Source: Chiloscyllium plagiosum
Lineage: Eukaryota
Reading direction: 5' to 3'
DNA length: 64,000 nt
Assembly (NCBI RefSeq): GCF_004010195.1
Contig: NC_057718.1
Span: 57,066,264 to 57,130,263, forward strand
Part shown: in pieces, positions 22,424 through 53,996 of the stretch
Position numbering within the stretch: position 1 is the first letter of the stretch
Layout: every line of letters starts with the position of its first letter
Notes under the pieces: model-generated
Databases searched by the model: none
The model's input: the letters and a program-made list of their open reading frames with translations, nothing else
Told to the model about the DNA's origin: nothing
Program-made: the position numbers and the translations under genes

Positions 22424-23137
22424 GTTGTGGTTCTGTTCGCCGAGCTGGAAGTTTTTGTTGCAAACGTTTCGTCCCCTGGCTAGGCGACATCATCAGTGCT
22501 TGGGAGCCTCCTGCGAAGCGCTTCTTTGATGTTTCCTCCGGTGTTTATAGTGGTCTGTCCCTGCCGCTTCGGTTGTCAGTTTCAGCTGTCCGCTGTAGTG
22601 GTTGGTATATTGGGTCCAGGTCGATGTGTTTGTTGATGGAGTTTGTGGATGAATGCCATGCCTCTAGGAATTCCCTGGCTGTTCTCTGTCTGGCTTGCCC
22701 CACGATAGTAGTGTTGTCCCAGTCGAATTCATGTTGCTTGTTGTCTGCGTGTGTGGATACTAAGAATAGCTGGTCGTGTCGTTTCGTGGCTAGTGGATGT
22801 TCATGTATGCGGATTGCTAGCTGTCTTCCTGTTTGTCCTATATAGTGTTTAGTGCAGTCCTTGCATGGTATTTTGGACACTACATTCGTCTTGCTCATGT
22901 TAGGTATCGGGTCCTTCGTTCTGGTGAGTTGTTGTCTGAGCGTGGCTGTTGGTTTGTGTGCCGTTATGAGTCCTAGGGGTCGTAGTAGTCTGGCAGTCAG
23001 TTCCGAGATGCTCCTGATGTATGGTAGTGTGGCTAGTCCTTTTGGTTGTAGTATGTCCTCGTTCCGTGGTCTTTCTCTTTGGCATCTGCTGATGAAGTTG
23101 CGCGGGTATCCGTTTTTGGCGAATACCTTGTATAATG
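22424..23137 (-). mobile_element. 5'-truncated Penelope-like element (family B), GIY-YIG plus 3' terminus
   Basis: ORF 22545..22898(-) NVVSKIPCKDCTKHYIGQTGRQLAIRIHEH...REFLEAWHS. Probable TSD TAATATATATT at 22413-22423 and 23138-23148. Confidence 0.88.
22460..22499 (-). ncRNA. Minimal type I hammerhead ribozyme (family B)
   Basis: GCA-CUGAUGA-U-GUCGCCU(AGCC)AGGGGAC-GAAA-CG-UU-UGC. Helix I is GCA/UGC and helix III is the palindrome ACGU. Confidence 0.7.
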
Positions 23138-25237
23138 TAATATATATTACATTATTTTAATTTGATTACTAATATTAAAGCATACTCTCCTGTTTATTTT
23201 TCTCCTCATCCTAATGATAGTTTAGATAATAGGCAAATTTCTAAAATAAAAGATTGTATGAATGGAAATGCTGGAAGTATATAACTGCTCAAACAGTATC
23301 TTTAAGCAGGAAAGATTCTTCAGATAATAGCTGTTTTTTTCTCTTTATGGTTTTGTTTCAGAATGCTCTAATTTCAAGTATTTCATTTTATACTTCCACT
23401 AAAAATCCACTAACAGTAACTTCTTTTTGAAAATACAGTTTTTGAAATGATAAGGTGATTTGTTTATAGTATTTAACTATACATTCTGCAGTTCAATCTC
23501 ATAAACAAGTTAAATTGTTCATGGTGTAGTAATAGTTAAATAACATAACATAAAATACTTTCTAGTTAAATTGTGGTACATCTAAGAAATAGAAAATGCT
23601 CTAAATACTCAGCTGTTCAGGCAGCATCTGTGGAGGTCAATTCTTGATAAATTTATTTTGGATAGCCAGGGTAACTCTTCAAAGAGCTGAGGTACCTCTG
23701 TACTTATTGACCCAAGACACCTGGATACATGTAGTAATTCTTGATGGGTTGGGGGTTCTGGTACTCTGTGGAATTATTAATGTTTCAGGCTTGTGATGAT
23801 TCGCTAACAGCATTTTGTATTTATAGTTTCAGATTTCCCTCAAAGGCACTATTTTGCTTTTGTATTTGTTAAAACCTTTTTTTTTGTGCATTTATAAAGT
23901 AAGGACAATTTTTATATGTATGTTGAACATGTGTTCGTGGACATGACTATAAAAACACACAAATGTTCTTTTGATGTCGTGTTTGTTTTTAACTTGTTAA
24001 AAAGTATGCATAGATACTTCAGGGGAAAATTAATAATATTGTTATTCAGCTGTTAAGAATGGGGTCATATGGAGTCATAATAAAAAAATCCTGCCATTGT
24101 ATGACAAATCTTTTTGACAATTGTTGACAAGTAGAGGAGCCCTTTGTGACATTTCCTTGAGTTGCCTGGTAGCTAATAGTAACCTTGCAGTGATGTGATC
24201 AAAGTAAGGTCAAACATACGATTGAAATTTGTCCTTACTGACAATACTTGTTCAATAATTGTTTATGCTCTTCTCCAAAGTGCTCTTCTTCCCAAGTTGT
24301 TTTCTTGGCACAATGCACTTCAGTAGATATAGACTGTGCGTTTCTAGCAATTGTAATTAAAAAGAACATCCCAAGGCAAATCAAATGAAATTCCCTGTAA
24401 TGTAATTTGTTTTATTTCTTTATGAAATTATGTAGCCAGAACAAATTTATTGTATATGTTCAATTTCACATAGACCAAAACAGCCATAAACCTAAATGTT
24501 AATATGGCAAATGTTGTATAAAGGTACATCATGATTTTACTTTTTTATGCTATGCTCCAATCCAGAAAATTCTGGAATCCTGCTTTTCCACATTCAGCAA
24601 TTTACACACATTTATCTTCAGGCCTCTACTACTGCGCCACTTATAGAATCCTTTATTTTATATTGCTTATTCTTTCGATTAAAAGTTATGACTCCACTCT
24701 ACTTTGCTTAAAATTTTATTTGCCATGGGGAGAAGTGATATTATTGCTGGACTGTTAATCCAGAGACTCAGATAATGTTCTGGGGTCCTGGGTTCACATG
24801 CCACCATGGATCATGGAGTCTGCTTAAGTGAACTTGGCTGTCTAATCTCTTTTTTGTCTTTAAGTTTATCCCTTAACCATACCTGTCTGTCTGACGTTGT
24901 GTGTGTTGGGGGAGGGTAGAATCAAAGACGTTTTGGTTTAAATCATTGACATTAATCAGTTTACCTTGTCATTAAACCTTGCTCCACTCAAGCTACTGTC
25001 TTATTTATAAAATATAAATTTTTTAAAGCTACATAAACCTGGTGTCTGGAATTGATTATTCACAAAGTCTGGTACCAGTTATTTGTACAATTTGTACAAC
25101 TGGTTAGGAGCCATTAGGGTCAGTTTTAAGGTCATTTGAATGTTTTAATTTTAACAATGTTGTGAATACAGGAATAGGGAGGCTGGTTTGATTTGGCTTT
25201 CTGTCTTCCTGTCGTAACAATATTCTGTCAAAACTTA

Positions 25238-25620
25238 GAGTCAAAGAGTCGTGGAGATGTACAGCACGGAAACAGACCCTTCGGTCCAACTCGTCCATAC
25301 CGACCAGATTTCCCAACCCAATCTAGTCCCAGCTGCCAGCACCCGACCCCTTTCCCTCCAAACCCTTCCTATTCATATATCCATCCAGATGCCTTTTAAA
25401 TGTTGCAATTGTACTAGCCTCCACCACTTCCTCTGGCAGCTCATTCCATACACATATCATCCTCTGCGTGAAAAAGTTGGCCCTTAGGTCTCTTTTATAT
25501 CTTTCCCCTCTCACCCTAACCTATGCCCTCTAGTTCTGGACTCCCTCACCCCAGGGAAAAATACTTATTTATCCTATCCATGCCCCTCATAATTTTATAA
25601 ACCTCTATCAGGTCACTTAT
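25238..25620 (-). mobile_element. CR1 LINE 3' end
   Basis: ORF 25323..25514(-) RGERYKRDLRANFFTQRMICVWNELPEEVVEA. Confidence 0.85.
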
Positions 25621-25899
25621 CTGAGCCTTTACAGTAAAACTTTAATGAAGATTGTCATGTTTCAAAATTTGAGACTATTTAACATGAAAGAGATTTCTGA
25701 TTTCAGCTTTTAGATTTGTGATTTTATGATGGTTTCAAGATTTCAATTTTTTCATCAAGATACAACATCCATTTTTAGTATCTTGATAAGTAGGCATATT
25801 CCACTGAAAAAACATGACAATAGATATTTTTATGAACTTGCAAGCTAATAAGCCACCATTAAAATTCAGAGTTTTAATAAGTTTAATTGCGGTCTCTGA

Positions 25900-26776
25900 A
25901 GATGCAAAAATGCCATCCCGTATTCCCAATTCCTCCGCCTCCGCCGTATCTGCTCCCAAGAGGACCAGTTCCACCATAGAACACACCAGATGGCCTCCTT
26001 CTTTAGAGACAGCAGTTTCCCTTCCCACGTGGTTAAAGATGCCCTCCAACGCATCTCATCCACATCCCGCACCTCCGCCCTCAGACCCAACCCCACCAAC
26101 CGCAACAAGGACAGAACGCCCCTGGTGCCCACCTTCCACCCTACCAACCTCCGCATAAACCAAATCATCCGCCGACATTCCCCCCACCCCCAAACAGACC
26201 CCACCACCAGGGATATATTTCCCTCCCCACCCCTCTCCGCCTCCAAACAGACCCCACCACCAGGGATATATTTCCCTCCCCACCCCTCTCCGCCTCCAAA
26301 CAGACCCCACCACCAGGGATATATTTCCCTCCCCACCCCTCTCCGCCTCCAAACAGACCCCACCACCAGGGATATATTTCCCTCCCCACCCCTCTCCGCC
26401 TCCAAACAGACCCCACCACCAGGGATATATTTCCCTCCCCACCCCTCTCCGCCTCCAAACAGACCCCACCACCAGGGATATATTTCCCTCCCCACCCCTC
26501 TCCGCCTTCCGCAAAGACCGCTCCCTCCGTGACTACCTGGTCAGGTCCACGCCCCCCTACGACCCACCCTCCCATCCTGGCACTTTCCCCTGCCACCGCA
26601 GGAACTGTAAAACCAGCGCCCACACCTCCTCCCTCACCTCCATCCAAGGACCTAAAGGAGCCTTCCACATCCATCAAAATTTTACCTGCACATCCACTAA
26701 TATCATCTATTGTATCCGTTGCTCCCGATGCGGCCTCCTCTACATTGGGGAGACTGGGCACCTCCTAGCAGAGCGC
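25900..26776 (+). mobile_element. Penelope-like element fragment (family A-like), RT C-terminus to GIY-YIG
   Basis: CKNAIPYSQFLRLRRICS, RTPLVPTFHP and FTCTSTNIIYCIRCSRCGLLYIGETG. Runs into an N gap at 26777-26794. Confidence 0.85.
26190..26507. repeat. Six tandem copies of a 53-bp unit
   Basis: CCAAACAGACCCCACCACCAGGGATATATTTCCCTCCCCACCCCTCTCCGCCT repeated with period 53. Confidence 0.92.
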
Positions 26777-29700
26777 NNNNNNNNNNNNNNNNNNTGCTCT
26801 TCCAGCACCACTGATCCAGAAACAGGAGGTTGGAGACTGGGCAGTGGACCTGCTGTGCGTGGGTGAAGTGCCCAAGCCAGTAGCACTTGTGGATTTCCAT
26901 CCTTCCCCTAATTCCATTTCCCAAATCTTTGCCCACTCACTTAACCCATCTATATTCCTCTTTAATATCTGAAAGTGCTCTTCATAACTTACCCTCCTAT
27001 CTATTTTTGCATCATCAGTAAATTCAGCAACCATATCTTCAGGCCTTTCATCAAGTAATTTATTTAAGTAATAAAACATTTGAAGTTCCAGCACTGAGCC
27101 CTGCTGCATCATTCTTAGCATCAAAAGGTAACAAGAAAATTACTAGATACCAATAAATCATCAAAAGTTGTGAGTCGTGGCCCAAAATCCCTAATCAGGG
27201 TCAGAAATTTTATTTCTGATGTTGATCAGATTAAACAAAAAACTCTTACATTTTGATAATTTCTGGACTGGAGATTTCTAAATAAAGGCCTTCTATTACA
27301 ACCTGTCCAAGTATTCCCAAATCCAGCACAGGAGATAAATCGCATAAAATCACACATGCTTTTACAGCACTGAGTGCCCATATTCGTAGAATTTAAATGC
27401 CCAGCAGACACTTTGAATGCTACTGTAAAAAGGCAAGTATGTAAGTTAAGTGAGGGTTAGGGTTGGAGGTGGGTGGGAGAGGCTAAGGTGCAGGAGGGTA
27501 AGAGGATAGGGTGCTAAATTGAAAGGAGGCTTTAGAGACTAAATGGACAAGGTGCCTGTGATCCAAATTAAATGGATGGGTATGAAGTTTGACTGGGAGT
27601 GTTAGGTCAGATTTGGGAGTGGCTTTTTGGTTTGGAGTTTGTGGAGTGTCAGGTCCTATGATGTTGAATCAGAGGGGTGGATCCTGCCAGGTCAGGGAGA
27701 GCAGGAGGTTTGGGTGATCAGTGTAAAGCGATATAGTAGTGTCGGGTTGAGGCTGGTGAGTGTCAGAGATCGAGGAATGTCAAGAATTGGTGGGGAATTT
27801 AGTTGTGGGGTGTCAGTGGTAAGTCAATGGTTTAATTTAATTTGCCATGAATTAGAGCACATTTATAATTATTTAACTTTTCTTGAGTGATATTAAGTTT
27901 AAGAAAGACAGAATACTCTGTCTTGTTTTTGAGGTCCAGACTGACCTCAAAATTGGAGTGTTGCATTTGTTGGGGTTAGAAGTTGGGGTTAGAAACCAGG
28001 CAAAAATTGAGGGGACTGCAAGATTTCAAGGTGGATTAGGCAGAAAGTCTACCTGCGGACTCCAACACTATATCCAAAAATTACATAAAAAGAATAAAAC
28101 AGAAAAAAATTCTTCTGCACTCTGCACTACATCCCCATTGCCTCCAAACAGGCCCCATATTGATCAATGCCAACTTAATGCTTTCTATCCATTTTCATAA
28201 TGCTTAATATCCTTGCTACCCGTCTACCCATTTTCTATGGCAACTCAAACCACCTACATCATCCTATCCTCCTCTACTCATCCCACAAACTGCCTCATAT
28301 CCCCTATTCTAACTTACTGTCTACTCAAGCCAATGCATGTTTTTTCCTACTATCCTTTCCCCTTCACCATGGCAAATCAGCCAGCATCCATTTGTACCAG
28401 TGCACACAAAAGAAAAAAAAAGTTCTATATATTAAAATTCCATAATGCAGACTACATTGAGAAAAATATTTCTCATTTATAAAATTTACTTTTTTACTTC
28501 TTCTCACTCAGTTCTCATACTTCTCAACAGCCCTTGACACATCTAACAGGCGTTTACACACATTTTACAGTACAATCTTCTCTACTATTAATAATCCATT
28601 AGACACCAAATGTCCTCCCCCACAAAGTTACCCAACCCTTTAAGTGTACCTTAATTCCCCAGAAAGAGTACCCTGTCACTGCAAAGTATACCAGACACCT
28701 TCTGCAAAGTTGTCTCAGGACCACATCCATAGGGGTCTTTATTTGGCTATCCAATCAAACCCACAAAATTTAGACATGCTCTTCACAGCTCTATGTGCAC
28801 GTTCCAGGTTCCCTGCCATAGTATTGCTAAAATCCTAATTCAGTGGTCAGCTGCCGCCATAAAACTTGCATACAAATGTATGAAATAGGGGCAGAAGGAG
28901 ATAATTTAAGCCTTCTCAACTTAAGTCTTCTCCAAAGTTTAATAAGATCATGGCTGATTTGTTTGTGTTTTGAATTTCAAATTACCATATTACTCCAACA
29001 GCCTGAAATGCTTGTTAGATAAAGGAATAAATCTATCTCTGCCTTAAAAACAATAGTAAATAATCTTTTCTCCACTGCTTTGAGGCTGAGAGTTCTAAAT
29101 TGACACGACCTTTTGACAGAAAAACTTCTCCTTAACTCTGCCCTAAAAGAGAGGTGCCTAATTTTAAAATATGACTCCTCATTCTGAACTTACCCACAAG
29201 TCTCATAATCCCTACATCCATTTTGTCAAGGCCAGTCAGGATATATTACACTTCAATGAGTCACCTCTTCTTCATCACAACATACTTTCTTACCTGTTTT
29301 GGTATCGTCAGAAAACTTTGCCACCATGCCTTCCCTTCCCTCATCTAAGTATTGAGATAAATTTTAAGAAGTTGAGGCCCAGCAAGGACTTCCATTCATT
29401 ACATCTTGTCAATCAGACAATGACCAGTTTTATAACCCGTCTGCTTGGCCAGCAGAAAACAATCTTCTATCCACATGAGTCATAAACCCAACCATATGCT
29501 TTACATGCGCAATTCCCAGCCTGATTCCATCGCTGTCGCCAAGAAAATGTGAAATGTCATATTCAGGAGCAGAACTTCTGATTTCAGGCTACTTCGAATC
29601 ATACTTCCTCACCACAATAATAAAAATTCAACCTAAATGTCAATAATGCAGAGTTATCTGTATTGCTAGAAAATTGAAATCATCAGCTACTTGTGATGTT

Positions 29701-30165
29701 GCAATATGGAAAAAGAACTGAACTGCTTTGACACTTATTTCATAGTCTTTCAAAAATGACAGCTACCATTAAAAAGGCAGATTAAGTTATATGCAGGTTA
29801 ATAATAAATGAATAAACTTTTTTCAAGCAAATACCACCTTCTTAGTGAACACAGCTATTACTGTGAACCTACTAAAGCCATAAATAACTGAATGGTGCAA
29901 TTATCCTTGTGTCCAATGGTTTCCCTCTTTCTTTTGATGTGTACCAATGTCAAGTATTGATTGATTGACCGCTTCTTGGCCAGTGTGATGAAGAGCTTAT
30001 GCTCAAAATGTCGATTCTCCTGTTCCTCAGGTGCTGACTGAGCAGCTGTGCTTTTCCAGCATGACACTTTTTGACAGTGTGCTGTTAAACTTAACATTTT
30101 CAAAGTAGATGCCTTCAAAACAATTTCAATTGAGATTATTGGCGTGGATTGCCCTAGTTTCACAT

Positions 30166-30256
30166 CGCTGAAAATGTGTTGCTGGAAAAGCGCAGCAGGT
30201 CAGGCAGCATCGAGGGAACAGGAGAATCGACGTTTCGGGCATAAGCCCTTCTTCAG
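30166..30256 (-). mobile_element. Single-arm family A mini insertion with intact hammerhead core at 30229-30256(-)
   Basis: Flanked by TTCACAT at 30159-30165 and 30257-30263. The minus strand begins CTGAAGAAGGGCTTATGCCCGAAACGTC. Confidence 0.8.
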
Positions 30257-30559
30257 TTCACATGTCAAATATTGACACTGGTTTGAATCATCTAAAAGAA
30301 TAATCATTTGCACTCTGAATTAAAACTCTTAAATCTGGTTTCCAGCATCTGCAGTTATTGTTTTTACCTCCAACCTCCAGTGTCTAACAATTGCTCTATC
30401 CTGGCTCCTGACCTGCATACATCAGCTCCGCCCTAACTCATACATAGTGACCCTGCCCTGTCCCAAGTACAGCAGCCATCCTTGGACCAGAGGACCACAG
30501 CTCCATTCCCTACTGAAACACAGGACCCTCGTACCCCAGATATTGGACCCTCTATCCAG

Positions 30560-31320
30560 GGTCTTAAATGGAGTAAATCTGGAAAAATGTGAACTTGCAA
30601 AGAAGAATATAAAAGAAACATTTTATGTAAATGGCGAGAAATTGCAGAGCTCTGAGATGTAGAGGAATCTGGGTGGCCTAGTGCACAAATTGCAAAAGGT
30701 CTGCAGATACAGCAAGTAATTAAGATAGAAAATAATGTGTCACTGTGAGGGGAATTGAATACAAAAATAGGGAGGTTATGCTTCAGATACGTAGGGCATT
30801 GATGAGATCAAATCTGAAATACTGTGTACAGTGTTGGCTTTTTTAGTTAAGGATGTAAATACTTTGGAATCAGTTCAGAGGAAGTTAGCTAGCATGTACC
30901 ATCAGCAAATGATGTAGCATTTTCTAATTGTGGAATGGATAGGTTGTCTAATGAGGAAAGGTTGTTCAGGCTAGGTTTGTATTTGCTGGAGTTTAAAATA
31001 GTATGAGGCAGCTTTGTTGAAACAGATAAGATCCTGAGAGGTCTTGATAAGGTGGTGTGGAAAGGATGTGTTCTCTTGTGGGAAAGTCTAGAACTGTGCA
31101 TCACTGTTTCAAAATAAGGGGTTTCCAATTAAAACTGAGAAAATGATCATTTTCTTTCTCACAGGGGGTCATGAATCTTTGGAATGCTCTTCCTCAAAAT
31201 GTGACGGAAGATAGTATTTTAATATGTTTAAGGCTGAGGTGGATAGATTTTTGATTATTAAGGAGGTGAAAGTTTAATTGGGATAGATGGAAATGAGGAG
31301 TAATCACATCAGCCTTGGGT
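30560..31320 (+). mobile_element. Old CR1 LINE 3' ORF2 fragment
   Basis: Degenerate NLEKCE, RGIEYKNREVMLQ and LEYCVQ-like motifs, and a WNALP-like end. Confidence 0.7.
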
Positions 31321-32111: not shown

Positions 32112-32235
32112 TCTTCAGGCTCATGCCCGAAATGTCGATTCTCCTGCTCCTTGGATGCTGCCTGACCTGCTGTGCTTTTCCAGCAACACATTTTCAGCTC
32201 TGATCTCCAGCATCTGCAGTCCTCACTTTCTCCTC
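32112..32235 (+). mobile_element. Family A mini insertion, perfect 16-bp TSD, hammerhead core truncated
   Basis: TSD CTTCCATCACTTCACT at 32096-32111 and 32236-32251. Confidence 0.88.
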
Positions 32236-34601: not shown

Positions 34602-37600
34602 GAACATAAAAAAATAGAACAATACAGCGCAGAACAGGCCCTTTGGCTCTCGATGTTGCGCCGACCCGTGAACTATTCTCAGCTCATCCCCCTACGCTAT
34701 CCTCTCATCATCCATGTGCTTATCTAAGGATTGTTTAAACTTCCCTCATGTGGCTGAGTTGACTACATTAGCAGGAAGGGCATTCCACGCCCTTACCACT
34801 CTCTGCGTAAAGAACCTGCCTCTGATGTCTGTCTTAAATCTATCACACCTCAATTTGTAGTTATGCCCACTCGTACAAGCTGACATTATCATCCTAGGAA
34901 AAAGACTTTCACTGTCTACCCTATCTAATCCTCTGGTCATCTTGTATGCCTCTATCAAATCCACTCTTAGCCCTCTTCTTTCCAATGAGAACAGACTAAG
35001 TCTCTCAGCCTTTCCTCATAAGACCTTCCCTCCAGACTAGGCAACATCCTGGTAAATCTCCTCTGCACCTTTTCCAATGCTTCCACATCCTTCCCGAAAA
35101 ATGGCGACTAGGACTGTACACAATATTCCAAGTATGGCCGCACTAGTGTTTTGTATAGTTGCAGCATGATATTGCTGCTCCAGAACGCAATCCCTCTATG
35201 AGTGAACACTGTATGCCTTCTTAACAGCACTATCAACCTGGGTGGCAACTTTCATGGATCTACGTACATGGACTCTAAGATTCCTCTGCACATCCACGCT
35301 ACCAAGAATCTTTCCATTGACCCAGTGCTCTTCCTTCCTGTTATTCTTCCCAAAGCGCATCACCTCACATTTAGCTGCGTTGAACTTCATTTGCCACCTC
35401 AGCCCAATTCCGCAGTTTATCCAAGTCCCCCTGCAACCTGTAACATTCTTCCAAATTGTCCACTAATCCACCAACTTTTGAGGTCTGTAAATTTACTAAT
35501 CCATCCACCTATGCCTGTGTCTAGTCGTTTATAAAAATGACAAACAGCAGTGGTCCCAAAACAGATTCTTGTGGCACAGCACTAGTAACTGGACTCAAGG
35601 CTGAATATTTTCCATCAACCACCATTTGCTGCCTTCTTTCAGAAAGCCAGTTTCTAATCCAAACTACTAAATCACCCTCAATTCCATGCCTCTGCACTTT
35701 CTCCAACAGCCAACCATGTGTAACCTGATCAAAGGCTTTACTGAAGTCCATGTATACCACGTCAACTGCCCTACCCTCATCTACATGCTTGGTCACCTTC
35801 TCAAAAAACTCAATGAGGCTTGTGAGACACGACCTGCCCTTGATGAAACCATGTTGACTATCTGAAATCAAATTGTTGCTTGCTAGATGATTAGAAATCT
35901 TATCTTTTACAATCCTTTCCAAAACCTTTCCTACAACAGAAGTAAGGCTCACTGGTCTATAATTACCTGGGTCATCTCTACTGCCCTTCTTTTTCTTCTT
36001 AGATTCTTAGATTCCCTACAGTGTGGAAACAGGCCCTTCAACCCAACAAGTCCACATTGACCCTCCGAAGAGCAACCCACCCAGACCCATTCCCTTAAAT
36101 TTACCCCTGCACCTAACACTATGGGCAATTTAGCATGGTCAATTCACCTAACATGCACAGCTTTGGATTGTGGGAGGAAACCGGAGCACCCAGAGGAAAC
36201 CCACGCCCTCCGAAGAGCAACCCACCCAGACCCATTCCCTTAAATTTACCCCTGCACCTAACACTATGGGCAATTTAGCATGGTCAATTCACCTAACAAT
36301 CCTTTGGATTGTGGGAGGAAACCCGAGCACCCAGAGGAAACCCACGCAGACACTGGGAGAACATGCAAACTCTACACAGACAGCTGCCCGAGGCGAGAAT
36401 TGAACCTGGGTCCCTGGCGCTGTGAGGCAGCAGTGCTAACCACTGAGCTTGAACAAGGGAACAACATTTGCAATCCTCCAGTCCTCTGGTACTAAACCTG
36501 TTGACAATGATGACTTAAATATCCAAACCAAAGGCTCTGCTATCTCCTCCCTAGCTTCCCAGAGAATCCTTAGATAAATCCCATCTGACCCAGGGGACTT
36601 GTCTACTTAACTCCTTCTAGAATTGAAAACACCTGATCGTAAGTAACCTCAATCCTTTCTAATCTAATATCTCATACCTCCTTCCTCTCCTCTACAATAT
36701 TCTCCTTTTCCTGAGTGAAAACCGATGAGAAATGTTTGCTTAGCACCTTTCCGATCTCCACAGGGTCCACTTTCAACTTCCCACTTCTGCCTTTGATGGC
36801 CCTATTCCTACCTTAGTCATCTTTTTATTCCTCACATACCTATAGAAAGCTTTAGGGTTCTCCTTTATTCTGTTCGCTAAAGACTGCTCGCGTCCTCTCT
36901 TTGCTTCTCTTAACTCTCACTTAAAATTCTTCCCAGCTGATCTGTAACTCTCCATTGCCTCATCAACATATAAGCCTCCTTTTTCTGCTTAACAAGAAAT
37001 GCAATTTCTTAGTAAACCACGGTTCCCTTACCTTATCACTTCCTCCCTGCTTGACAGAGACATACCTATCAAGGACACGCAATATCTGTTCCTTAAACCA
37101 GCTCCACATTTCCATTGTCTGCATCCCCTGCATTTTGCTACCCCATTCTTTGCTTCCTAATTCTTGCCTAATCACATTATAATTGCCCTTGCCCCATCGA
37201 TAACCTGTGGCATGTACCTATCTCTTTCCACCGCTAAACTAAACATAACTGAATTATGGTTACTCTCTCCAAAGTGATCACCTACAACTAAATGGAACAC
37301 CTGGCCTGGTTCATTGCCAAGCACCAGATCCAGGGTGGCCTCTCCTCTTGTTGGCCCTTCGACATACTGTCAGGAAATCCTCCTGTACACATTGGACAAA
37401 AACTGATCCATCTGACGTACTGGATTTATGGCATTTCCAGTCAATGTTGGGGAAGTTAAAGTCCCCCAAAATGACCACCCTATTTCTTTCACTCCTACCC
37501 AGAATAATTTTGCCAATCCTCTCTTCCACCTCCCTGGAACTCTGTGGAGGTCTATAGAAAACTCCAAGCAGTGTGACCTCTCCTCTCCTGTTTCTAACCT

Positions 37601-38310
37601 CAGCCCACACTATCTCAGTAGATGAGCCCTCGTCAAAAGTTCTCTCAGCCACCATTATAGTATCCTTGACTAACAAGGCCATGCCTCCCCCTCTTTTACC
37701 ACCTTGCCTGTTCTTAATGAAAGATCTAAACCCTGGAACCTGCAACATCCACTTCTCACCTTTCCATGTCTCCGAAATGGCCACAACATCGAAGTCCCAG
37801 GTACCTATCCAAACTGCTAGCTCACCTACCTTATTTCGGATACTTCTGGCATTGAAATAGACACACTTCAAACCAGTTTGCTGTCTGCCAGCACATTCCT
37901 GTGACCCTGAAATCCTGTCTCTGTCCTCCCTACTCTCATCCTCCTGTGCACTGCAACTACACTTCAGGTTCCCATCCCCCTGCTGAGCTAGTTTAAACTC
38001 ACCCGACTAGCACCAGCAAATTTACCACCCAGGATATTAGTACCCCTCTGGTTCAAATGAAGACCGTCCTGTTTGTACATGTCCCACCTTCTCCAGAATG
38101 AGCCCCAATTATCCATGTACCTGAAACCCTCCCTTCTGCACCATCCTTGCAGCCACATGTTCAGCTGATATCTCTCCCTATTCCTTGACTCACTATCCCT
38201 TGGCACGGTTAACAACCAGAGGTAACAACTTTGTTTGTTCTAGCTCTCAGCTTCCACCCTAGCACCCTGAAATCCTGTCTTACATCCCATATGATTGCAT
38301 CTGAATATGT
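34602..38310 (-). mobile_element. Long CR1 LINE (ORF1 esterase C-terminus, APE endonuclease, RT, 3'UTR), frameshifted, with a V-SINE inside
   Basis: 37988..38215 DGLHLNQRG (SGNH). 37311..37871 YFNARSIRNK, AISETW, GVFYRPP, LGDFNFP. 35521..35952 SLTSVVGK, YMDFSKAFD, VPQESVLGPLLF. Confidence 0.92.
35999..36448 (-). mobile_element. V-SINE (HE1-like) with internal ~145-bp tandem duplication
   Basis: The segment starting CCCTCCGAAGAGCAACCCACCC occurs at ~36061 and ~36206. Interrupts CR1 ORF2. Confidence 0.85.
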
Positions 38311-43567: not shown

Positions 43568-44190
43568 TGCTGGATCAAGCAGACAAATCTCGTCCAGAAA
43601 CCCTAGCCACTCTCCCCTACACCAAAGAAATCTCGGAAATGACTGCCAGACTACTCAGACCCCTTGGCATCATGGTAACCCACAAACCTACCAACACACT
43701 AAAACAGCAGCTAATGAACTTGAAAGATCTTATACAGACAATGAACAAAACTAATGTCATTTACAAAATACCGTGCAAGGACTGTAACAAACACAACATT
43801 GGATAAACAGGCAGAAAACTAGCCACCAGGATACATGAACACCAACTAGCCACAAAAAGACATGACCCTCTCTCACTAGTATCCTCACATACTAATGAGG
43901 AAGGACACCATTTCGACTGGGACAACACATCCATCCTCGGACAAGCCAAACAAAGACACGCACGAGAATTCCTATAAGCATGGCATTCCAATGAACTCTA
44001 TCAATAAACATATCGAGTTAGACCCCACCTACCACCCCCTGAGAAAAGGAACAGGAAATGACTTCACCACAGGAGATGACATCACCAACCCAAAGAAACC
44101 CAAACATATAAATAGAAAGCAGGAATTTTCAGCATTGCTTCTCCTGAGGCTCACTGAAGATGTTACCTAGTAGGGTAACGAAATGTCTGG
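43568..44190 (+). mobile_element. Penelope-like element 3' fragment (family B)
   Basis: ATLPYTKEISEMTARLLRPLGI...NVIYKIPCKDCNKHNIG, homologous to 22424-23137. Confidence 0.88.
44151..44190 (+). ncRNA. Minimal type I hammerhead ribozyme (family B)
   Basis: UCA-CUGAAGA-U-GUUACC(UAGUAG)GGUAAC-GAAA-UG-UC-UGG. Confidence 0.68.
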
Positions 44191-45059: not shown

Positions 45060-45350
45060 CCCAGGACGCTTTTGGTCAAGCTGTCTGTGTGAAGGTTCAC
45101 ATTTTCCTCATGTCTGTATGGGTTTCCTCCAGGTGCTCTGGTTTCCTCCCACAGTCCAAAGTTGAGCAGTTTAGGTGAATTGACCGTGCTAAATTGCCCA
45201 TAATGTTCAGGGATGTGTAGGCTAGGTGCATTAGTCAGGGGAAATGTATAGTAATATGGTAGGGGAATGGGTCTGGGTTGGATACTGTTTGGAGGGTCGG
45301 TGTGGACTTCTTGGGTCAAATAGCCTGTTTCCACACTGCAGTAATTCTAA
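45060..45350 (+). mobile_element. V-SINE (HE1-like), 5'-damaged
   Basis: GGGTTTCCTCCAGGTGCTCTGGTTTCCTCCCACAGTCCAAAG V-domain and tail. Confidence 0.8.
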
Positions 45351-45502
45351 AATGTTCTTCTAAGAGCTGATTTTAATCCCTTCTGAAATGGCCTGCAAAA
45401 ACCATTTAGTATCCAGCCAGTGATTCCCACATCCTATGAATGAATTTAAAAAAGGAAAATACTGTCTGCCTTTTCAGTATAATTTGTTTTGAATTTGTCT
45501 GA

Positions 45503-45730
<228 letters not shown>

Positions 45731-46919
45731 TAAATGTTTCAAGGTAATACGTTGACTGCTAGGACTGATATTTTGTGAAATGCACATTTTCTGTAAGATG
45801 GTAAGAACATGAAGTAATTGGCACATTTTTTCATTATTATAATTTTGGTTTTCATTAAATACATTTTCTCTTGCTCTGTGCAAAGGATTACTCCTTTAAG
45901 AAAACCCTTGTCCCAGAGAACTGAAGCATGATTTTCACAAAATATCTGCTGGTGTGAATAAGCAACTTTTTATTCTGTTGATTAGTTCACAGAAATTGCT
46001 TTGATCATGAAACACCCTCACAACTGGACTAAACGCCTGACTGTCGGACGTTGCCAGCTTTGCGAAATGAAGTTTAACAGGATATTGAAATGTTCAGAAT
46101 CAGCAAACAGAGCAGATCTCAATTAAACAATTAAACATTATGCTTGCAGATGCTATTCAGAAACAATACTATTTGGAAATGCCGTTTGCTTTCCATTGTA
46201 TGACATCTGTGTTACAAAAATTATGCATCAATTGGCTAATCCTTCACTACACCACATCATCCAGCCAAGTATGTGATCGCAGGCTAATCTTAACTCTGGA
46301 TTTGTCAGATCCCAGAACAAAGCCTGGCTTGATGGATCCTAACATTGTTACTTATCTACTATGGAAGTCAATAACTGAACACATTCACAAGTCTGTAAAT
46401 ATTTAAGGAAATATTCACCCAGTAAAGAAAGATTCTGACGTTCCAGGATGGAAGAGGGAAACAGGGAAGATTCTGATGCGTACGAACTGTTTTGGGTTTT
46501 TTTTTTGTCTGAACTCAACTTTGTAGCCTTGAGGGTAATCCTTCCCTTTACGGCATTGTGGGTAAACTGTCAGAACATGGATTGCAGTGGTTCAAAAAGG
46601 CAGCTCAACACCATCTAGGGCAACAAGGGATAGGCAATAAATGCTGACCAGCCAATAATGTCCACATCACATAAGTGAATAAAAAAAACATTGTAATGAC
46701 TGCCCACTCAGATGAGAAACCTCAGTTCATTAAGATTCTGACAGAATACCCACAAATCATTATACCCCTGGGTGAGTAGATTGAACTGGCTATATTTTTT
46801 ATTCGTTCTCTTCTCACCTTTGTTGGTCACAGGGAGTCCATTCCTCATGGATAGCTTATCCAGTTCCAGTGTAGTTATGCTTTCTAAAGAGCCAATCTAA
46901 CCAGCCTTTTTTTTTCCTT

Positions 46920-47215
46920 TGGCCCAACAAGTCCACACTGACCCTCTGAAGAGTAACCATTCAGACCCATTCCCCTACCCTGTTATTCTACATTTACCCT
47001 GACTAATGCACCTAACCTGAACACTATGGGCAATTTAGCTTGGCCAATTCACCTTACTTGCACGTCTTTGGACTGTGGGAGGAAACCGGAGTACCCAGAG
47101 GAAACCAACAAAGACATGGCAAGCATGTGCGAACTCCACACAGACAGTTGCCCGAGGCTGGAATTGAACCTGGGTCCCTGTGAAGCAGCAGTGCTAACTA
47201 TTGAGCCACTGTGTC
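46920..47215 (-). mobile_element. V-SINE (HE1-like)
   Basis: Same head and V-domain as the other copies. Confidence 0.82.
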
Positions 47216-47917
47216 TTTCTTGGGTTAAGGAAGGAATGAGTTTAATAAAATACAAGAAAAAGATAATAATATGGAACACAGAAACGAGGAATGAGGAAAT
47301 ACATAATAGTTAGAAAAAAGATATATGAATCAAACTTTGGCTTATCCATGGAGAAATGTTGCTGCATTAAGTTAGGTCATTCCATTCGTGCTAACCTCAG
47401 CAGTTGAGCATTTGGTGTGAAGATTGTTGGTTCTCCAATTTACACAAAAGAGTTGTCCTTTTCCCTTTTCAGTGGTGCTTTGCTAATTTGTGACTCAAGA
47501 GTCATAGAGCTGTACAGCATGGAAACAGACCCTTCGGTCCAACTCATCCATACCGATCAGATATCTCAACCCAATGCAGTCCCACCTGTCAGCACTCAGC
47601 CCATCACCCTCCAAACTCTTCCTATTCATCTATTCATATGGGTGCCTTTTAAATGTTGCAATTGTACTAGCCTTCACCACTTCCTCTGCCAACCCATTCC
47701 ACAGACGCACCACCCTCTGCATGAAACATTGGCCCCTTAGGTCTCTCTTATATCTTTATCCTCTCACCCTAAACCCATACACTCTAGTTCTGGACCCCAG
47801 CCGTCACCCCCACCTCCAAGGAAAAGGCTTTGTCTATTTACTCTATCCATGCCCCTCATGATTTTGTAAACCACTATAAGGTCACCCCTCAGCCTATGAT
47901 GCTCCAGAGAAAACAGC

Positions 47918-48139
47918 TGAAAATGTGTTGCTGGAAAAGCGCAGCAGGTCAGGCAGCATCCAAGGAGCAGGAGAATCGACATTTCGGGCATGAGCCCTTC
48001 TTCAGGAATGTTGGATTCCTGAAGAAGGGCTCATGCCCAAAACGTCGATTCTCCTGCTCCTTGGATGCTGCCTGACCTGCTGCGCTTTTCTAGTAACACA
48101 TTTTCAGCTCTGATCTCCAGCATCTGCAGTCCTCACTTT
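47918..48139. mobile_element. Palindromic family A mini insertion, 16-bp TSD
   Basis: TSD CTCCAGAGAAAACAGC (47902-47917) / CTCCAGGGAAAACAGC (48140-48155). The core is intact on - (47978-48005) and has GAAA>AAAA on + (48019-48046). Confidence 0.9.
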
Positions 48140-48900
48140 CTCCAGGGAAAACAGCCCTAGCTTATTCAACCTTTCCCTATAGCTCAAATCCTCCAATCCT
48201 GGCAACATCCCTGTAAACCTTTTTTGAACTATTCCAAGTTTCACAACATCCTTCCAATAGGACGGAGACCAGAATTGCATGCAATATTCCAAAAGTGGCC
48301 TAACCAATGTCCTGTACGGCCTCAACATGACCTCCCAAACTCCCAATAAATGAAAGCATCAAACGCCTTCTTCACTATCCTATCTACCTATGACTCCACT
48401 TTCGAGGAGCTATGAACCTGCACTCCAAGGTCTCTTTGTTCAGCAACACTCCCTAGGACCTTACCATTAAGTATATAAGTCCTGCTAAGATTTGTTTTCC
48501 CAAAATGCAGCACCTTGCATTTATCTAAATTAAACTCCATCTGCCACACCCTTTGGCCCATCTGATCAAGATCCCGTTGTAATCTGAGGTAATCTTCTTC
48601 ACCATCCACTACACCTCCAATTTTGGTGTCATCTGCAAACTTACTAACTATACCTCTTATGCTCACATCCAAATCATTTATATAAATGATGAGATGTGAT
48701 GGACCCTGCACTGATCCTTGTGGCACTGCACTGGCCACAGGGCTCGGGTCTGAAAAACAATCCTCCGCCACCATCCTCTGTCTTCCAGCTTTGAGTCAGT
48801 TCAGTATCCAAATGGGTGGTTCTCCCTGAGATCTAACTTTGTTAACCAGCCTCCCATGGGGAACCTTGTCGAACGCCTTACTGAAGTCCATATAGATCAT

Positions 48901-49116
48901 GGAGGAGAAAGTGAGGTCTGCAGATGCTGGAGATCAGAGCTAAAAATGTGTTGCTGGAACAGCGCAGCAGGTCAGGCAGCATCCAGGGAACAGGAGAATC
49001 GATGTTTCGGGCATAAGCCCTTCTTCCTGAAGAAGGGCTTATGCCCAAAACGTCGATTCCCCTGTTCCATGGATGCTGCCTGACCTGCTGCGCTGTTCCA
49101 GCAACACATTTTCAGC
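48901..49116. mobile_element. Palindromic family A mini insertion, 14-bp TSD
   Basis: TSD TCCATATAGATCAT (48887-48900) / TCCATACAAATCAT (49117-49130). Confidence 0.88.
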
Positions 49117-50843
49117 TCCATACAAATCATATCTACCGCTCTAACCTCATGAATCCTCTTTGATACTTTTTCAAAAAACTCAAACAAGTTTGTTAGACAT
49201 GATTTCCCACGTGCAAAGCCATGTTATCTATCCCTAATCAGTCCTTGCCTTTTCAAATACATGTAAATCCTGACACTCACGATTTCCTCCAACAACTTGC
49301 CCACCACTGATGTCAGGCTCGTTGGTCTATAGTTCCCTGGTTTGTCCTTACCAACTTTTTAAAGTAGTGGCACCACGTTAGCCAACCTCCAGACTTTCGG
49401 CACCTCACCTGTGACTACCGATGATACAAATATCTCAGCAAAAGGCCAAGCAATCACTTCCCTAGCTTCCCACAGAGGTCTAGAGTACACCTGTCCTGGG
49501 GATTTATCCACTTTTATGCATTTCAAGACATCCAGCACTTCCTCCTCTGTAATATGACATCCAGCACTTCCTCCTCTGTAATATGGACATTTTTCAAGAT
49601 GTCACCATCTATTTCCCGACGTTCTATATCTTCTATGTCCTTTTTCACAATAAACACAAATGCAAAATATTTGTTTAGTATCTCCCCCATCTCCTGCAGC
49701 TCCACACAAAGGCCGCCTTGCTGATCTTTGAGGGGCCCTATTCTTTCTCTAGTTACCTTTTTGTCCTTAATGTATTAGTAAAAATCCTTTGGATTCTCCT
49801 TAACTCTACTTGCCAAAGCTATCTCTCCTGATTTGCCCTCCTGATTTCCCTCTTAAGTACACTCCTATTGCCTTTATATTCGTCTAAGGACTCACTCAAT
49901 CTATCTTGCCTAAACCTGACATATGCTTTCTATTTTTTCCTCAATTTCTTTTGTCATCCAACATTCCCTACACCTACCAGCCTTTCCTCTCACCCTAACA
50001 GGAATATACTTTCTCTGGACTCTCATTACCTGATTTCTGAAGGTTTCCCAATTTCCAGCCATCCCTTTACCTTTGAACGTCTGCCCCCAATCAGCTTTTG
50101 AAAGTTCTTGCCTAATACCGTCAAAATTGTCCTTTATCCAAATTAGAACTTCAACTTTTAGACTTGCTTCTAGCAATCAGCAAGAGGGACTTTTTCTTTT
50201 GCTTGCAAGTATGGAGTGCCTCGTGAATGTTCTTCAGCTGTGAATTCACAGCATAAACCAGCCCATTTGAACTAAAACACTAGACTAGCACACTGTGAGG
50301 TCTGCATTGCAGTTGGTTTTGGAATTCCGTCTCTTAGAAATGCTTGCAAAGTCTTGTCAAATGTAAAAGGAACTTAAGAACAAAATGGTGAGAACTTTAT
50401 AGTGTTTTGGTGCAGATGAATCTGGGTGTCTTCATGCATGAATTGCAGAAAACTAGTATGCAGATACAGCAGGCAATAAGGAAGGCAAGTTAAAGTTTAG
50501 AATTTATTGTTAAAGGAGTATAAAAATAGGCGAGTGTTACTGCAACTGTACAAGGCATTAGTGAGAGCGCACCTGGAATAATTTTGGTCCCCTTAATTAA
50601 AGAGGGATGTAATTGTATTGGAGGTAGTTCAAAGGAGGCTTACTCGATTGATTCCAGATGGCCGGTGGGGGCTGGTGGTGTTTTTCACATGAAGAGGGAA
50701 TGAGAGCAAAGGCTTGTTCTGTCTAGTTTAGAAGAATGTGAGGAGATCTAATTGAAGTATATAAGATGCTGAAGGGGGTTGAACAAGTAGATATAGAAAG
50801 GATGTTTCCTCATTTGGGGCTGTCTAGCACAAGGGGTCATAAT

Positions 50844-50931
50844 GGTTGTAGGTTTGCTTACTGAGCTGGGAGGTTCGTTTTCAGATGTTTCGTCACCATA
50901 CCAGGTAACATCTTCAGTGAGCCTCCAGACA
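50844..50931 (-). mobile_element. 88-bp family B micro-insertion with perfect 13-bp TSD
   Basis: AAGGGGTCATAAT at 50831-50843 and 50932-50944. The interior is homologous to the 3' terminus of the PLE at 22424-22510. Confidence 0.85.
50881..50920 (-). ncRNA. Minimal type I hammerhead ribozyme (family B)
   Basis: UCA-CUGAAGA-U-GUUACC(UGGUAU)GGUGAC-GAAA-CA-UC-UGA. Confidence 0.68.
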
Positions 50932-51959
50932 AAGGGGTCATAATTTTAGGATAAGGGGTAGCAGATTCTAAACAGATGTGTGGAGAAATTACTTCCCTCA
51001 AAGAGTCATGAATCTGTGGAATTCACTACCTCAAAATACAATAGATGATGGGACACTGAGTAAATTTAAGGAGGAGATAGACAGATTTTTAATACATAAT
51101 GAGTTGAAGGGTTATGGAGAGCAAGAAGGAAAGTGGAGGTTAAGCTGAGATAAGATCAGCCATGATTGTATTAAATGGTATGCTCAAAAGGATGAATTGT
51201 CTATTCCTGCTCCAATTTCTTATGTTCTTATTAAAAAACAAAGAACGTCAAATACTGGAAATCTAAAATGGAAACAGTTTCTCCAGAAATTTTTGCTTCT
51301 AATGTCATTATGTTGTGTATTCTTATAAGGGCAAAACACAAACATTTCTTTTGTGCAGAACTGTTTTCTTTTATCTTATACCATGCCCACGGTTTGGGAT
51401 ATAATTCACAAGGGGATGGTTTCTGCTGAGGTGGTAAATGATCCAATTATCACTGCAATCTAAAGAGATTGCAGTTCAATTTTTGCATCTTTTTTTTTGA
51501 AGTCTCTCAGTCTGAAGTTCTTTGACATTCTCTATGTCCAACATTCCATAGGTCCTCTCGGGACTAAATACAATCCACACAGTAATTTTCCAGACAGTCA
51601 CTAATGTGCATTCTCCGAATTTAATTTCTTAGTCATCTTTGAATTTTTTATGAACAAAAACCTTAGAAGTTCTGTACATTGGTAAGTAATTGAGCATTAT
51701 GATCCATTGTTATAATATGTACAAACATATGGATTAAGAGCAGAAGTAGGTCATTCAGCCCCTAACTGTTCCAACATTCAATAAGATCATAGCTTTGCGT
51801 TTCGAATTCTATATTCCCATCTACCCTAAAAATCTTTTATTTAACAATAATCTGTCTACTTCTGCCTTAAAAGTATTCAATTACATCACTTCCATTACTT
51901 CATGACTAAGTCTCTTCAGGATCTACTCGGCTCACCTCACATGAGAAAGACAGAATGCC

Positions 51960-53870
51960 CAAAAAAATAGTGTGTTCCATTACCAACCTGGCTGGAAACC
52001 CATATCCAGTGGGTTCATCTACTTGCAGTCTGAAAACTAAATTCAAACTCAATCTTAGAACCCGCTGTATATGAACCTCATGGATAATAAGCAAAATAAT
52101 CTTCCAAAATGAAGAACTGGTGTTGTTGCCCATGAACTCAGGCACTTTAACATTGATATCACTGCCCTGCTGGAGACATGAAGAGCAGGTGAAGGGCAAT
52201 TGAGGGAAGAAGGTGATGCTTATATCTTCTGGAGAAGAAAACCCAGATTAACCCACAACACATGGAACTGGATTCACTATCACAAACAAACCTGTCAGCT
52301 GACTTTCAGAATCCGTATCAACGATCACTTCATGACTCTCCATCTACAACTTGCCAAGAACAAGCAGGCAATGGTTACTCCAATCTTTGATGCCATAGAT
52401 GAGTCCAACGAAGGCTTTTACTTAATCCTGGACACCATACTCACCAGCATCCCTAAGGAACATAGTATTTTCAAACTTGGGGACTTCAATGTCAGAGTTG
52501 GAAACAATGCCCAACATTTTAAAGGAACCATGAAAAAGGAAGGAATCAGGAATTCCAACTCTTAACGGGATTGTCCTGCTCATCAAATGTGTGGAACACC
52601 AGTTGGTCATCACTAACACACTGTTCTGTCAAAGAGAGAAGTTCATGATGTCCTGGAGGCATCCATGATCAAAGCACTGGCATATGATCAACTACATCAT
52701 TGTTCGATCCTGAGACACAAGGGATGCCCTCAACACCAAGCCAATGACCAGTTCAGACAACAGCTGAATAGACCACCAGCTCATCTGTCCTCAATGTTCA
52801 TCAAATGAATCCAGAAACAGCTGAAGATGAAGAAACAGTTAAAAAAAAAGCTTTAAGAGCCAGCAGACTAGTGAACTTTGAATAATGACTTCATCAAATT
52901 TCCAAGGACTTCACTTTAATCGAGTTGAAGAAATGTGGGAAGTGCTGAAACCAGCCATTGTCTCATGCTGTGAAGAAACCATCAGTTAAAAGCCCAGGAT
53001 TCACCAAGATGAGAATGACGACATTATCCAAGATCTCATCAACAAAAAGAGGAAAGTTCTCCATGTCAGCAATAAAACATCAACAGCAAGGCAAAAAGGA
53101 GAAACCATCAAATAGCTAAGTCAGAGTACAAAGAAGAATGAGATAAATCAAGAACCAATGGTGGATTGAGAAAGCTAAGAAGCTGCAAGTCCTTGTTGGT
53201 AAGAATGACACCTGAGGCTTCTTCATTGATACCAAGGCAATTTTTGGACTCCTCACCCTTGACCTCAAAATAGTTCAGAGTAAGGATTGAACCCTTTTGA
53301 GAGACAGAGAAAACATCATCCTCCAATAGAGAGACCTCTTTAAAGAACTCCTAAGTCATGATAGAATTCCTGCCATGGATGTGTTGAGGAATCTCCAACT
53401 CACCATCAAAGATGATATTATATACATCAAAGAATGTAAAAGCGACAGACATAGATGGGATTCCAGCAGAGATGTTCAAACTTGGAGGAGCAGTGCTAAC
53501 CTCTATCAACTGTTTCTGAAAATCTGGGGCAAAGAAGAATCCTCGCTGGGCTGCTTCTCTGACACTCTGAGGAAATCCATCCTGAAAGCCAGTGTGGCTT
53601 CCAACCAAACCGTGGAACAATGGACATGATTTTCATTGCTCGGCAACTCCAAGAGAAGTGCTAGGAGTTGACCTTCATCAATCTGACCAAGGCTTTTGAC
53701 TCAGTGAGTCAGAACGTGCTATGGAAGACCCCGTCAAAGGCTGGCTGTCCGGTGAAATTCATCAACATCCTCTATCTCCTCCATGACAAGATATCTACAA
53801 CAGTGTACACCAAAGGTCATATGGCAAAATAGAAGTCAAGATGGGAGTCGAGCAGGAATCTCTAATAGCT
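51960..53870 (+). mobile_element. Decayed RTE-clade LINE (endonuclease to RT)
   Basis: IDITAL.ET, IFKLGDFNVRVG, LVITNTLF, DMIFIARQLQEKC and FINLTKAFDSV. Confidence 0.82.
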
Positions 53871-53955
53871 CCACCTGGAAATGACACAACCAACTCTAGC
53901 AGACCGAGTCACATAAATAGTAAGCAGGACAGAACACCAGTGCTTCACTGGAGGT

Positions 53956-53996
53956 GCACTGATGATGTTACCCTAGAATGGTGATGAAATGTCTGC
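53956..53996 (+). ncRNA. Minimal type I hammerhead ribozyme (family B) in a short PLE terminus (~53875-54032)
   Basis: GCA-CUGAUGA-U-GUUACC(CUAGAAU)GGUGAU-GAAA-UG-UC-UGC. Confidence 0.62.

What the first reader, a model, noticed from the sequence alone, without database searches (positions are those of the whole stretch)
22460..53996. Second hammerhead family with visible helix covariation across four diverged copies
Seen: copies at 22460-22499(-), 44151-44190(+), 50881-50920(-) and 53956-53996(+) keep CUGA(A/U)GA-U and GAAA-NN-UH invariant while the stems change compensatorily. Helix I reads GCA/UGC, UCA/UGG, UCA/UGA and GCA/UGC. Helix II position 3 reads C-G, U-A, U-G and U-G, and the loops differ freely. 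Two copies sit directly 3' of GIY-YIG coding sequence. Known: one extra nucleotide between A9 and G10.1 is tolerated in natural hammerheads. Inference: the RNA fold was under selection in the source PLE subfamilies.
Basis: partly seen in the sequence, partly recalled or inferred. Interest (0 to 1): 0.7.

Follow-up and report, generated by a model that had tools for sequence, protein, structure and literature searches.

The report
Penelope hammerheads holding the start codon
Four worn remnants of a shark jumping gene each carry a tiny self-cutting RNA motif of an already described kind, and the motif's odd extra base is simply the middle letter of the jumping gene's own start codon.

Summary
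The four motifs are real: a strict scan finds 4, against 0.015 per simulated window. They are minimal type I hammerheads in truncated, decayed Penelope/Poseidon retroelement copies of a bamboo-shark-like genome (87-90% protein identity). This class is published (PMC4209133), and the scan noted such motifs elsewhere in this genome.

The covariation among the four copies is not significant: 1 of 10 pairs changes on both sides, and 68 of 500 shuffles score as high. Part of it is CpG-type decay. Selection on the fold is better supported by variation across the family and by distant relatives.

- The invariant extra U is the U of the element's start codon (A9-U-G10.1). This matches Anolis Poseidon (PMC11167929) and the N-termini of fluke and metagenome proteins, so the motif is dual-coding.
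- Loop II is not free. In these shark subfamilies the upstream RT-endonuclease frame stays open to a UAG in that loop.
- All four copies span the cut site, so they were copied from uncut RNA.

Verdict: ordinary kind, with one testable twist.

The parts
22460..22499 (-). c1: minimal type I hammerhead; C3 at 22496, A9 at 22490, predicted cut after 22463; only copy with an intact ACGU palindrome; G-G mismatch in helix II
22423..23135 (-). c1 host element: 5'-truncated Penelope/Poseidon copy (end of RT thumb, GIY-YIG domain, tail, hammerhead), ending 68 nt after A9; 11-nt A/T-rich direct repeat at both ends (likely target-site duplication)
22422..22490 (-). Start of the element's ORF: AUG = A9-U-G10.1, 23 open codons homologous to the N-termini of full-length Penelope/Poseidon proteins
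22480..22596 (-). Tail of the RT-endonuclease frame, open to the UAG in loop II (22482-22480) once the 1-nt difference near 22569 seen in most reads is allowed for
44151..44190 (+). c2: minimal hammerhead; 7-bp helix II; homology ends at 44189
43597..44189 (+). c2 host element: decayed Poseidon-type fragment of a second subfamily (72% DNA identity to c1), GIY-YIG region with stops, tail frame open to the loop II UAG
50881..50920 (-). c3: minimal hammerhead
50844..50931 (-). c3 insertion of about 85 nt: starts 11-14 nt before C3, ends 68 nt after A9, flanked by a 13-nt exact direct repeat that begins with ATT (target-site duplication)
53956..53996 (+). c4: minimal hammerhead with one extra C at the helix II/loop II border and G10.1-U11.1
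53877..54033 (+). c4 insertion of about 157 nt: tail, hammerhead and ORF start, ending 69 nt after A9 (68 allowing for the extra C); no target-site duplication found

Best explanation
These are the minimal hammerheads of Penelope/Poseidon retroelements, left in four independent, truncated and decaying insertions from at least two subfamilies. Shown: motif, host elements, shared 3' end and CpG-type decay. Strongly inferred: in the source element the motif sits at the unit junction and is dual-coding, with A9, the extra U and G10.1 forming the start codon and helix II, GAAA and the cut site encoding the first residues (M-x5-T-K-R-L). Inferred from literature: helix III is too short for a monomer, so cleavage needs two copies pairing through the ACGU palindrome and/or help from the element's protein. 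A cut would fall 25 nt after the AUG and remove the start codon from the downstream ORF, so the likeliest role is late processing or translational shut-off of tandem transcripts. Reverse transcription starts downstream, about 68 nt into the ORF (a second site lies at least 30 nt further), on uncut RNA, which is why every copy spans the cut site. The genomic copies themselves are most likely inert.
For: Strict scan 4 vs 0.015. c1 ORF 87-90% identical to Chiloscyllium and Hemiscyllium PLE proteins; relatives carry RVT_1 and GIY-YIG matches. All four hallmarks of the published class (families with covariation, extra base, G10.1-C11.1, palindrome) match (PMC4209133). The Anolis RNA printed in PMC11167929 has the start codon at A9-U-G10.1. 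c1's AUG-frame peptide aligns from residue 1 with P0025 (11 of 20, E 0.001) and P0027 (9 of 19, E 0.011). The signature M(M)x4-6[TSPAV]KR[LQ] opens 9 of 120 long PLE proteins (about 5 independent families) against 3 of 1728 internal methionines; P0138 and P0139 show it too, P0139 with the same A-L-M-M lead-in as c1. 3 of 4 copies end 68-69 nt after A9 in AC-rich sequence. Target-site duplications at c3 and probably c1.
Against: No cleavage was measured. In one single-cell RNA run (512 reads laid) no place had a pile-up of read starts or ends, a weak test that agrees with PMC11167929. No full-length shark element was available: no genome is held, the 36-residue search gave 0 hits, and none of the 4 N-terminal hits was a shark protein. 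The pairwise peptide E-values are modest. Folding z-scores of the four 86-87 nt regions are only -0.6 to -1.9, and none of the four minimum-energy folds is the hammerhead.
Confidence: 0.88

Rival explanations
1. The motif is kept mainly as protein code, start-codon context or a protein-binding hairpin, and its catalysis is vestigial in this lineage.
For: Dual coding. Of three best-supported variants in the motif downstream of the AUG, two are synonymous in the AUG frame. Anolis core mutants did not affect insertion in vitro and no reads ended at the cut site (PMC11167929). No pile-up here. All four copies come from uncut RNA.
Against: C3, U4, G5, A6 and G8 lie before the AUG and are invariant in 4 of 4 copies, in a tail frame whose residues are otherwise unconstrained (10 of 13 variants non-synonymous). 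Stems stay paired while the encoded residues change between shark, fluke and lizard. The Anolis motif does cleave with protein and shows C3/G8 rescue.
Confidence: 0.07
2. These particular genomic copies are maintained as working ribozymes that cut host transcripts.
For: Core intact in 4 of 4; family RNA reads exist, about 8 to 1 on the hammerhead strand.
Against: 3 of 4 have lost the palindrome by CpG-type change; c4 has lost G10.1-C11.1; c1 has a helix II mismatch; copies are solo and 3-22 kb apart; flanking ORFs carry stops and frameshifts; the reads come from many copies (409 of 512 under 95% alike).
Confidence: 0.03
3. The motifs are chance matches.
For: No Rfam hammerhead hit; short stems.
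Against: 4 vs 0.015 expected; copies are homologous beyond the motif; fixed position relative to GIY-YIG and to the 3' end.
Confidence: 0.01

Closest known systems
Minimal hammerheads (min-HHR) in pLTRs of metazoan Penelope-like elements (Cervera and De la Pena 2014, PMC4209133; parts 1-2 of 4 read)
   Same: Type I layout, no stable helix III, palindromic 15.2-16.2, extra base between 9 and 10.1, G10.1-C11.1, long helix II, short helix I, many diverged families per genome, mostly solo copies from truncated elements; reported for fish Poseidon, Neptune and Xena.
   Different: Sharks are not mentioned and the main text has no 'AUG', 'ATG' or 'start', so the extra base is not linked to the start codon there. 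Helix II is 6-7 bp here, 7-8 bp in the Schistosoma families. Its supplementary figures were not seen.
Poseidon_Ac (PAc) of Anolis carolinensis (Frangieh et al. 2024, PMC11167929; parts 1-2 of 4, passages and two uninformative supplements read)
   Same: AUG at A9-U-G10.1, same core and GAAA-CG-UC end, 6-bp helix II, UAG inside loop II, internal RT start sites in AC-rich sequence that define the 3' ends, AT-rich or ATT targets, copies made from uncut RNA.
   Different: PAc has a 7-nt loop (cut 26 nt after the start codon, other reading frame through GAAA) and a 126-nt UTR before the AUG. The shark family has a 6-nt loop (25 nt) and an upstream frame that runs on to the loop II UAG. The shorter 3' end here is at +68; the paper places RT starts at 111-118.
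Non-LTR retrozymes (Li, Clavereau, Pollet, bioRxiv 10.64898/2026.07.22.740005; part 1 of 5 and passages read)
   Same: Type I hammerheads derived from PLE pLTRs; reported in one chondrichthyan.
   Different: Retrozymes are tandem units; these four are dispersed solo fragments, two still attached to coding sequence.
The window's other hammerhead family (Neptune-type)
   Same: Same minimal layout with an extra base.
   Different: Extra base is A (no AUG), helix II 4-5 bp, helix I 2 bp; one copy lies 3' of an endonuclease fragment 75% identical to a piece with a Cys-rich linker.

Membership tests
Metazoan PLE minimal hammerhead | Core CUGANGA ... GAAA ... UH in type I order | tested here: met
   4 of 4
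Metazoan PLE minimal hammerhead | Unpaired base between A9 and 10.1 | tested here: met
   U in 4 of 4
Metazoan PLE minimal hammerhead | G10.1-C11.1 pair | tested here: met
   G-C in 3 of 4, G-U (CpG-type) in c4
Metazoan PLE minimal hammerhead | Long helix II, short helix I | tested here: met
   Helix II 6-7 bp (23 of 24 cells paired); helix I 3-4 bp
Metazoan PLE minimal hammerhead | Palindromic helix III seed for dimer formation | tested here: inconclusive
   Intact in 1 of 4; the other three differ by one CpG-type transition; no variant at these two bases among the 40 rows shown of 121
Metazoan PLE minimal hammerhead | Located in the pLTR of a PLE | tested here: met
   c1 and c2 follow GIY-YIG sequence; c3 and c4 are homologous to that end
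Metazoan PLE minimal hammerhead | Self-cleavage as dimer or with protein help | not testable with these tools
   No pile-up of read ends in one poly(A) single-cell run is a weak negative
Penelope/Poseidon clade | C-terminal GIY-YIG endonuclease after a PLE RT | tested here: met
   c1 aligns to the C-terminal part of RT-bearing proteins; c1 itself had no Pfam hit; homologue P0005 has GIY-YIG above cut-off and P0008, P0009 have RVT_1 above cut-off
Penelope/Poseidon clade | No CX2-5CxxC linker between RT and endonuclease (criterion from PMC8557442, passages) | tested here: met
   Absent in alignment A2; a Cys-rich linker is present in the window's other PLE piece at 26564-26776
Penelope/Poseidon clade | Placement in an RT phylogeny | not tested
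   No tree built; the copies lack the RT core
Penelope/Poseidon clade | ORF starts at the base of stem II (as in PAc) | tested here: met
   indirect, since no full-length shark element was available
Non-LTR retrozyme | Tandem units each with a hammerhead | tested here: not met
   Four solo copies 3-22 kb apart, no further copy in the window

The most novel reading that the evidence does not exclude
In these shark Poseidon subfamilies the ribozyme carries both ends of the single gene. The AUG of one unit (A9-U-G10.1) lies 8 nt upstream of the UAG in loop II that ends the previous unit's ORF, so the repeat unit has no untranslated region. On a tandem or circularised transcript this stop-restart overlap would couple translation of successive units, ribosomes passing through would unfold the core, and cleavage 25 nt after the AUG would act as an off-switch that decapitates the downstream ORF while leaving the upstream one complete.
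Probability: 0.2. Interest if true: 0.55.

Novelty: new member of a known kind. Interest (0 to 1): 0.22.

Why it matters
As found, it adds shark examples to a described class and matters little. The useful by-product is an explanation for a conserved oddity: in the Penelope/Poseidon clade the extra base at the foot of helix II is the U of the start codon. Covariation tests on these motifs must therefore allow for protein coding and for CpG decay. What PLE hammerheads are for is still open (PMC8557442; PMC11167929). A cut that removes the start codon points to translational control or late processing and is easy to test in a reporter.

Tried and rejected
No whole genome is held, so copy collection, subfamily consensuses and a tree-aware covariation test could not be done.

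Rfam: no hammerhead among 18 matches.

Protein-based locus scans: viral contigs 0 of 36 stretches, metagenomes 0 of 55, genome contigs 2 of 87 (L001 and L002, not examined for hammerheads).

The loose DNA pattern in viral contigs gave 121 or more stretches, 80 fetched. 15 of 80 pair in helix II, but none also has a full type I helix I; not used as relatives.

The 36-residue AUG-frame search gave 0 hits. No RNA holder was listed among runs indexed as holding the stretch. Run X20 laid 0 reads.

Four-copy covariation as proof of selection: rejected.

A distal extension of helix I (GGAGG with CUUCC or CCUCC beyond an A-rich internal loop) appears in folds of c1 and c3 but not c2 or c4. One common variant (106 of 215 reads) breaks a pair or shifts its register; left unproven.

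Loop II UAG conserved because it is a stop codon: weakened. The Anolis loop also holds UAG although its ORF ends well upstream; P0003, P0007 and P0014 read through it; none of the 119 long proteins shows the read-through signature at its C-terminus, three short matches looking like chance; tail residues are unconstrained.

Lunse, Weinberg and Breaker (PMC5785218) is not held; I saw only its reference and a review's summary (PMC6765202 passages), and it may already discuss the start codon. PMC13725137 passages had nothing on PLE start codons.
Full report
1. Observation. The four motifs are present at the stated places. A descriptor scan of both strands gave 7 loose hits: these four and three of the window's other family. 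A strict version gave exactly these four, against means of 0.135 (loose) and 0.015 (strict) in 200 simulated windows. A model built from the four found no further copy. Rfam gave no hammerhead among 18 matches.

2. The covariation claim. On the four copies, 39 of 40 cells pair, but 6 of 10 pairs never vary and only the outer helix I pair changes on both sides against the commonest pair; 68 of 500 shuffles reach the score. Helix II position 3 (C-G, U-A, U-G, U-G) is a chain of single transitions. The two bases after GAAA are CG, UG, CA, UG, so three copies carry the usual CpG transitions and have lost the ACGU palindrome. The c4 G-U at 10.1-11.1 is of the same type. c1 has a G-G mismatch. Homology of c2 ends one base before its third helix I partner. 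Loop II begins UAG in 3 of 4. So the four-copy pattern mixes subfamily differences with neutral decay.

3. Host elements. The c1 ORF is 87-90% identical to PLE proteins of Chiloscyllium punctatum and Hemiscyllium ocellatum, among 18 hits, which points to a bamboo-shark-like host. c1 and c2 are 72% identical over 442 nt of endonuclease-coding DNA, that is two subfamilies. There is no Cys linker before the endonuclease, which by the criterion in PMC8557442 means Penelope/Poseidon. c3 is an insertion of about 85 nt with a 13-nt target duplication starting ATT; c1 has an 11-nt A/T-rich one; none was found for c2 or c4. c1, c3 and c4 end 68, 68 and 69 nt after A9. Of reads laid on c1, 131 continue past that point with a shared sequence and 19 run into unrelated flanks, which fits two RT start sites and an optional tail as in PAc. 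All four copies span the cut site, so their templates were uncut there.

4. Better evidence for selection on the fold. Laying reads and contigs on c1 showed a large family (512 RNA reads in X19, 0 in X20, 16,528 contigs in X15, 1,912 in X1). Of the 40 best-supported variant rows (81 more not shown), four fall inside the 40-nt motif: N7, H17 (U or C), loop II and the mismatched helix II site. None is in the core. Chance is 0.002 if all four sites count as free and 0.02 if the mismatch does not (classes set after seeing the data). In the endonuclease domain 14 of 22 variants are synonymous, so these common variants largely reflect active source lineages. A core-only pattern found 15 metagenome stretches; 6 of 15 pair at 5 or more of 6 helix II positions, five of them one family. 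I aligned 6 of the 15 with the four copies, leaving out one duplicate, four of another related group with an imperfect helix and four that do not fold; then 5 of 10 pairs change on both sides and 0 of 500 shuffles reach the score. That choice favours pairing and the rows are related, so it is supportive only. The tested Anolis motif has the same layout with different, still paired stems (compared by eye).

5. The extra base is the start codon. [quoted passage not shown] In c1 that frame is open for all 23 codons to the end of the copy. It aligns from residue 1 with two full-length PLE proteins, P0025 (E 0.001) and the Dicrocoelium protein P0027 (E 0.011). The K-R pair encoded across GAAA-CG follows the first methionine at the expected distance in 9 of 120 long PLE proteins, against 3 of 1728 internal methionines. 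Most of the 120 are incomplete or fused gene models, and the nine represent about five families. An N-terminal search returned 4 proteins, of which P0138 (Opisthorchis) and P0139 show the signature, P0141 a degenerate form and P0140 none. The reads' continuation past c1's end, translated by hand, stays in frame and gives P-E-L-Q-I-F, matching the P-E-L-x-x-F motif of those N-termini. Inference from codons: P0027 has Pro and Val where the sharks have Leu/Ser and Thr, which implies C-G in place of U-A at helix II position 2, a compensatory change visible in the protein. The window's other family has A as extra base and no AUG. Searches for this link (and word searches) found it stated only for PAc, and not tied there to the extra base; PMC5785218 and the supplements of PMC4209133 were not seen.

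6. The upstream frame. In c2 the endonuclease frame is open from the end of the domain to the loop II UAG. In c1 it is too, once a 1-nt difference carried by 57 of 104 reads is allowed for; c4's 33-codon remnant is open up to its extra C. Shark gene models P0001, P0016 and P0002 end exactly there, while P0003, P0007 and the distant P0014 read through in the same register. Chance of an open frame is 0.27, 0.09 and 0.19 for the three tails, which are not independent. Against a function: 10 of 13 tail variants change the residue (domain 8 of 22, p 0.035), flatworm full-length proteins stop soon after the domain, and the Anolis loop has UAG without it being the stop. The overlap of start and stop is therefore probably real in these subfamilies but may be incidental.

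7. Mechanism. Shown: structure, position, dual reading and decay. From literature: such motifs do not cut as monomers and cut weakly as dimers; the Anolis one cuts only with the element's protein and is not needed for insertion in vitro. Inferred: cutting is a late or regulated event that removes the AUG from the downstream ORF and may release unit-length RNA. RNA reads lie about 8 to 1 on the hammerhead strand with no pile-up of ends; a fragmented poly(A) library with possible internal priming cannot show a promoter or exclude cleavage.

8. Verdict. Real, and a new member of a described class; earlier notes of this scan report such motifs across the same genome (98 notes fit, 8 shown). Interest 0.22. 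The most novel reading, a ribozyme that carries overlapping start and stop codons and switches translation off, has probability about 0.2.

Noticed in passing
window 7624-7657(-), 10844-10871(-), 16343-16370(+), 30227-30254(-), 47975-48008(-), 49029-49056(+): The other hammerhead family (extra base A, helix II 4-5 bp). Several copies sit head to head as long hairpins (for example arms 47907-48009 and 48015-48117; 7563-7649 and 7663-7749), which cause spurious Rfam microRNA hits.
   Followed up: partly
window 11090-11185(-), 26564-26776(+), 13691-13894(+), 12295-13214(+): Fragments of other PLEs: endonuclease pieces, two with a Cys-rich linker region (Neptune-like), and a decayed RT; the 11090-11185 piece lies upstream of the hammerhead at 10871.
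   Followed up: partly
window 26131-26554: 53-nt tandem repeat (about 8 units, inner copies 99% alike) inside a Neptune-like PLE fragment; a run of N follows at 26777-26794.
   Followed up: no
window 23132-23155: 24-nt perfect A/T palindrome at the 5' junction of c1, overlapping the likely target duplication; may be a small inverted piece made during insertion.
   Followed up: partly
L024, L042, L069, L075, L083, L091, L093, L096, L097 (position 301 onward): Viral contigs with CUGANGA, an extra U, a well-paired G+C-rich helix II and GAAACG, preceded by CGC or CGU; they look like hammerheads of another topology.
   Followed up: no
L005, L009, L012, L015, L017: A metagenome family of the same hammerhead with a 7-nt loop and PAc-like geometry; the AUG frame is open for 18-49 codons; no PLE coding sequence detected in these loci.
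   Followed up: partly
L001 and L002: PLE endonuclease sequence in bacterial genome records (a 495-nt scaffold, and an 813-kb contig of a metagenome-assembled genome); contamination or mis-binning is likely, not checked.
   Followed up: no
proteins P0004 and P0016: Chiloscyllium gene models (MAP3K7 and 5'-nucleotidase isoforms) whose C-termini are this PLE's endonuclease and tail, that is exonised or mis-annotated copies.
   Followed up: no
window 35521-36006(-), 37311-38006(-), 48388-48795(-): LINE fragments: RVT_1 and Exo_endo_phos matches above the Pfam cut-off.
   Followed up: no
window 6525-7324: G+C-richer degenerate tandem region with long open frames on both strands.
   Followed up: no
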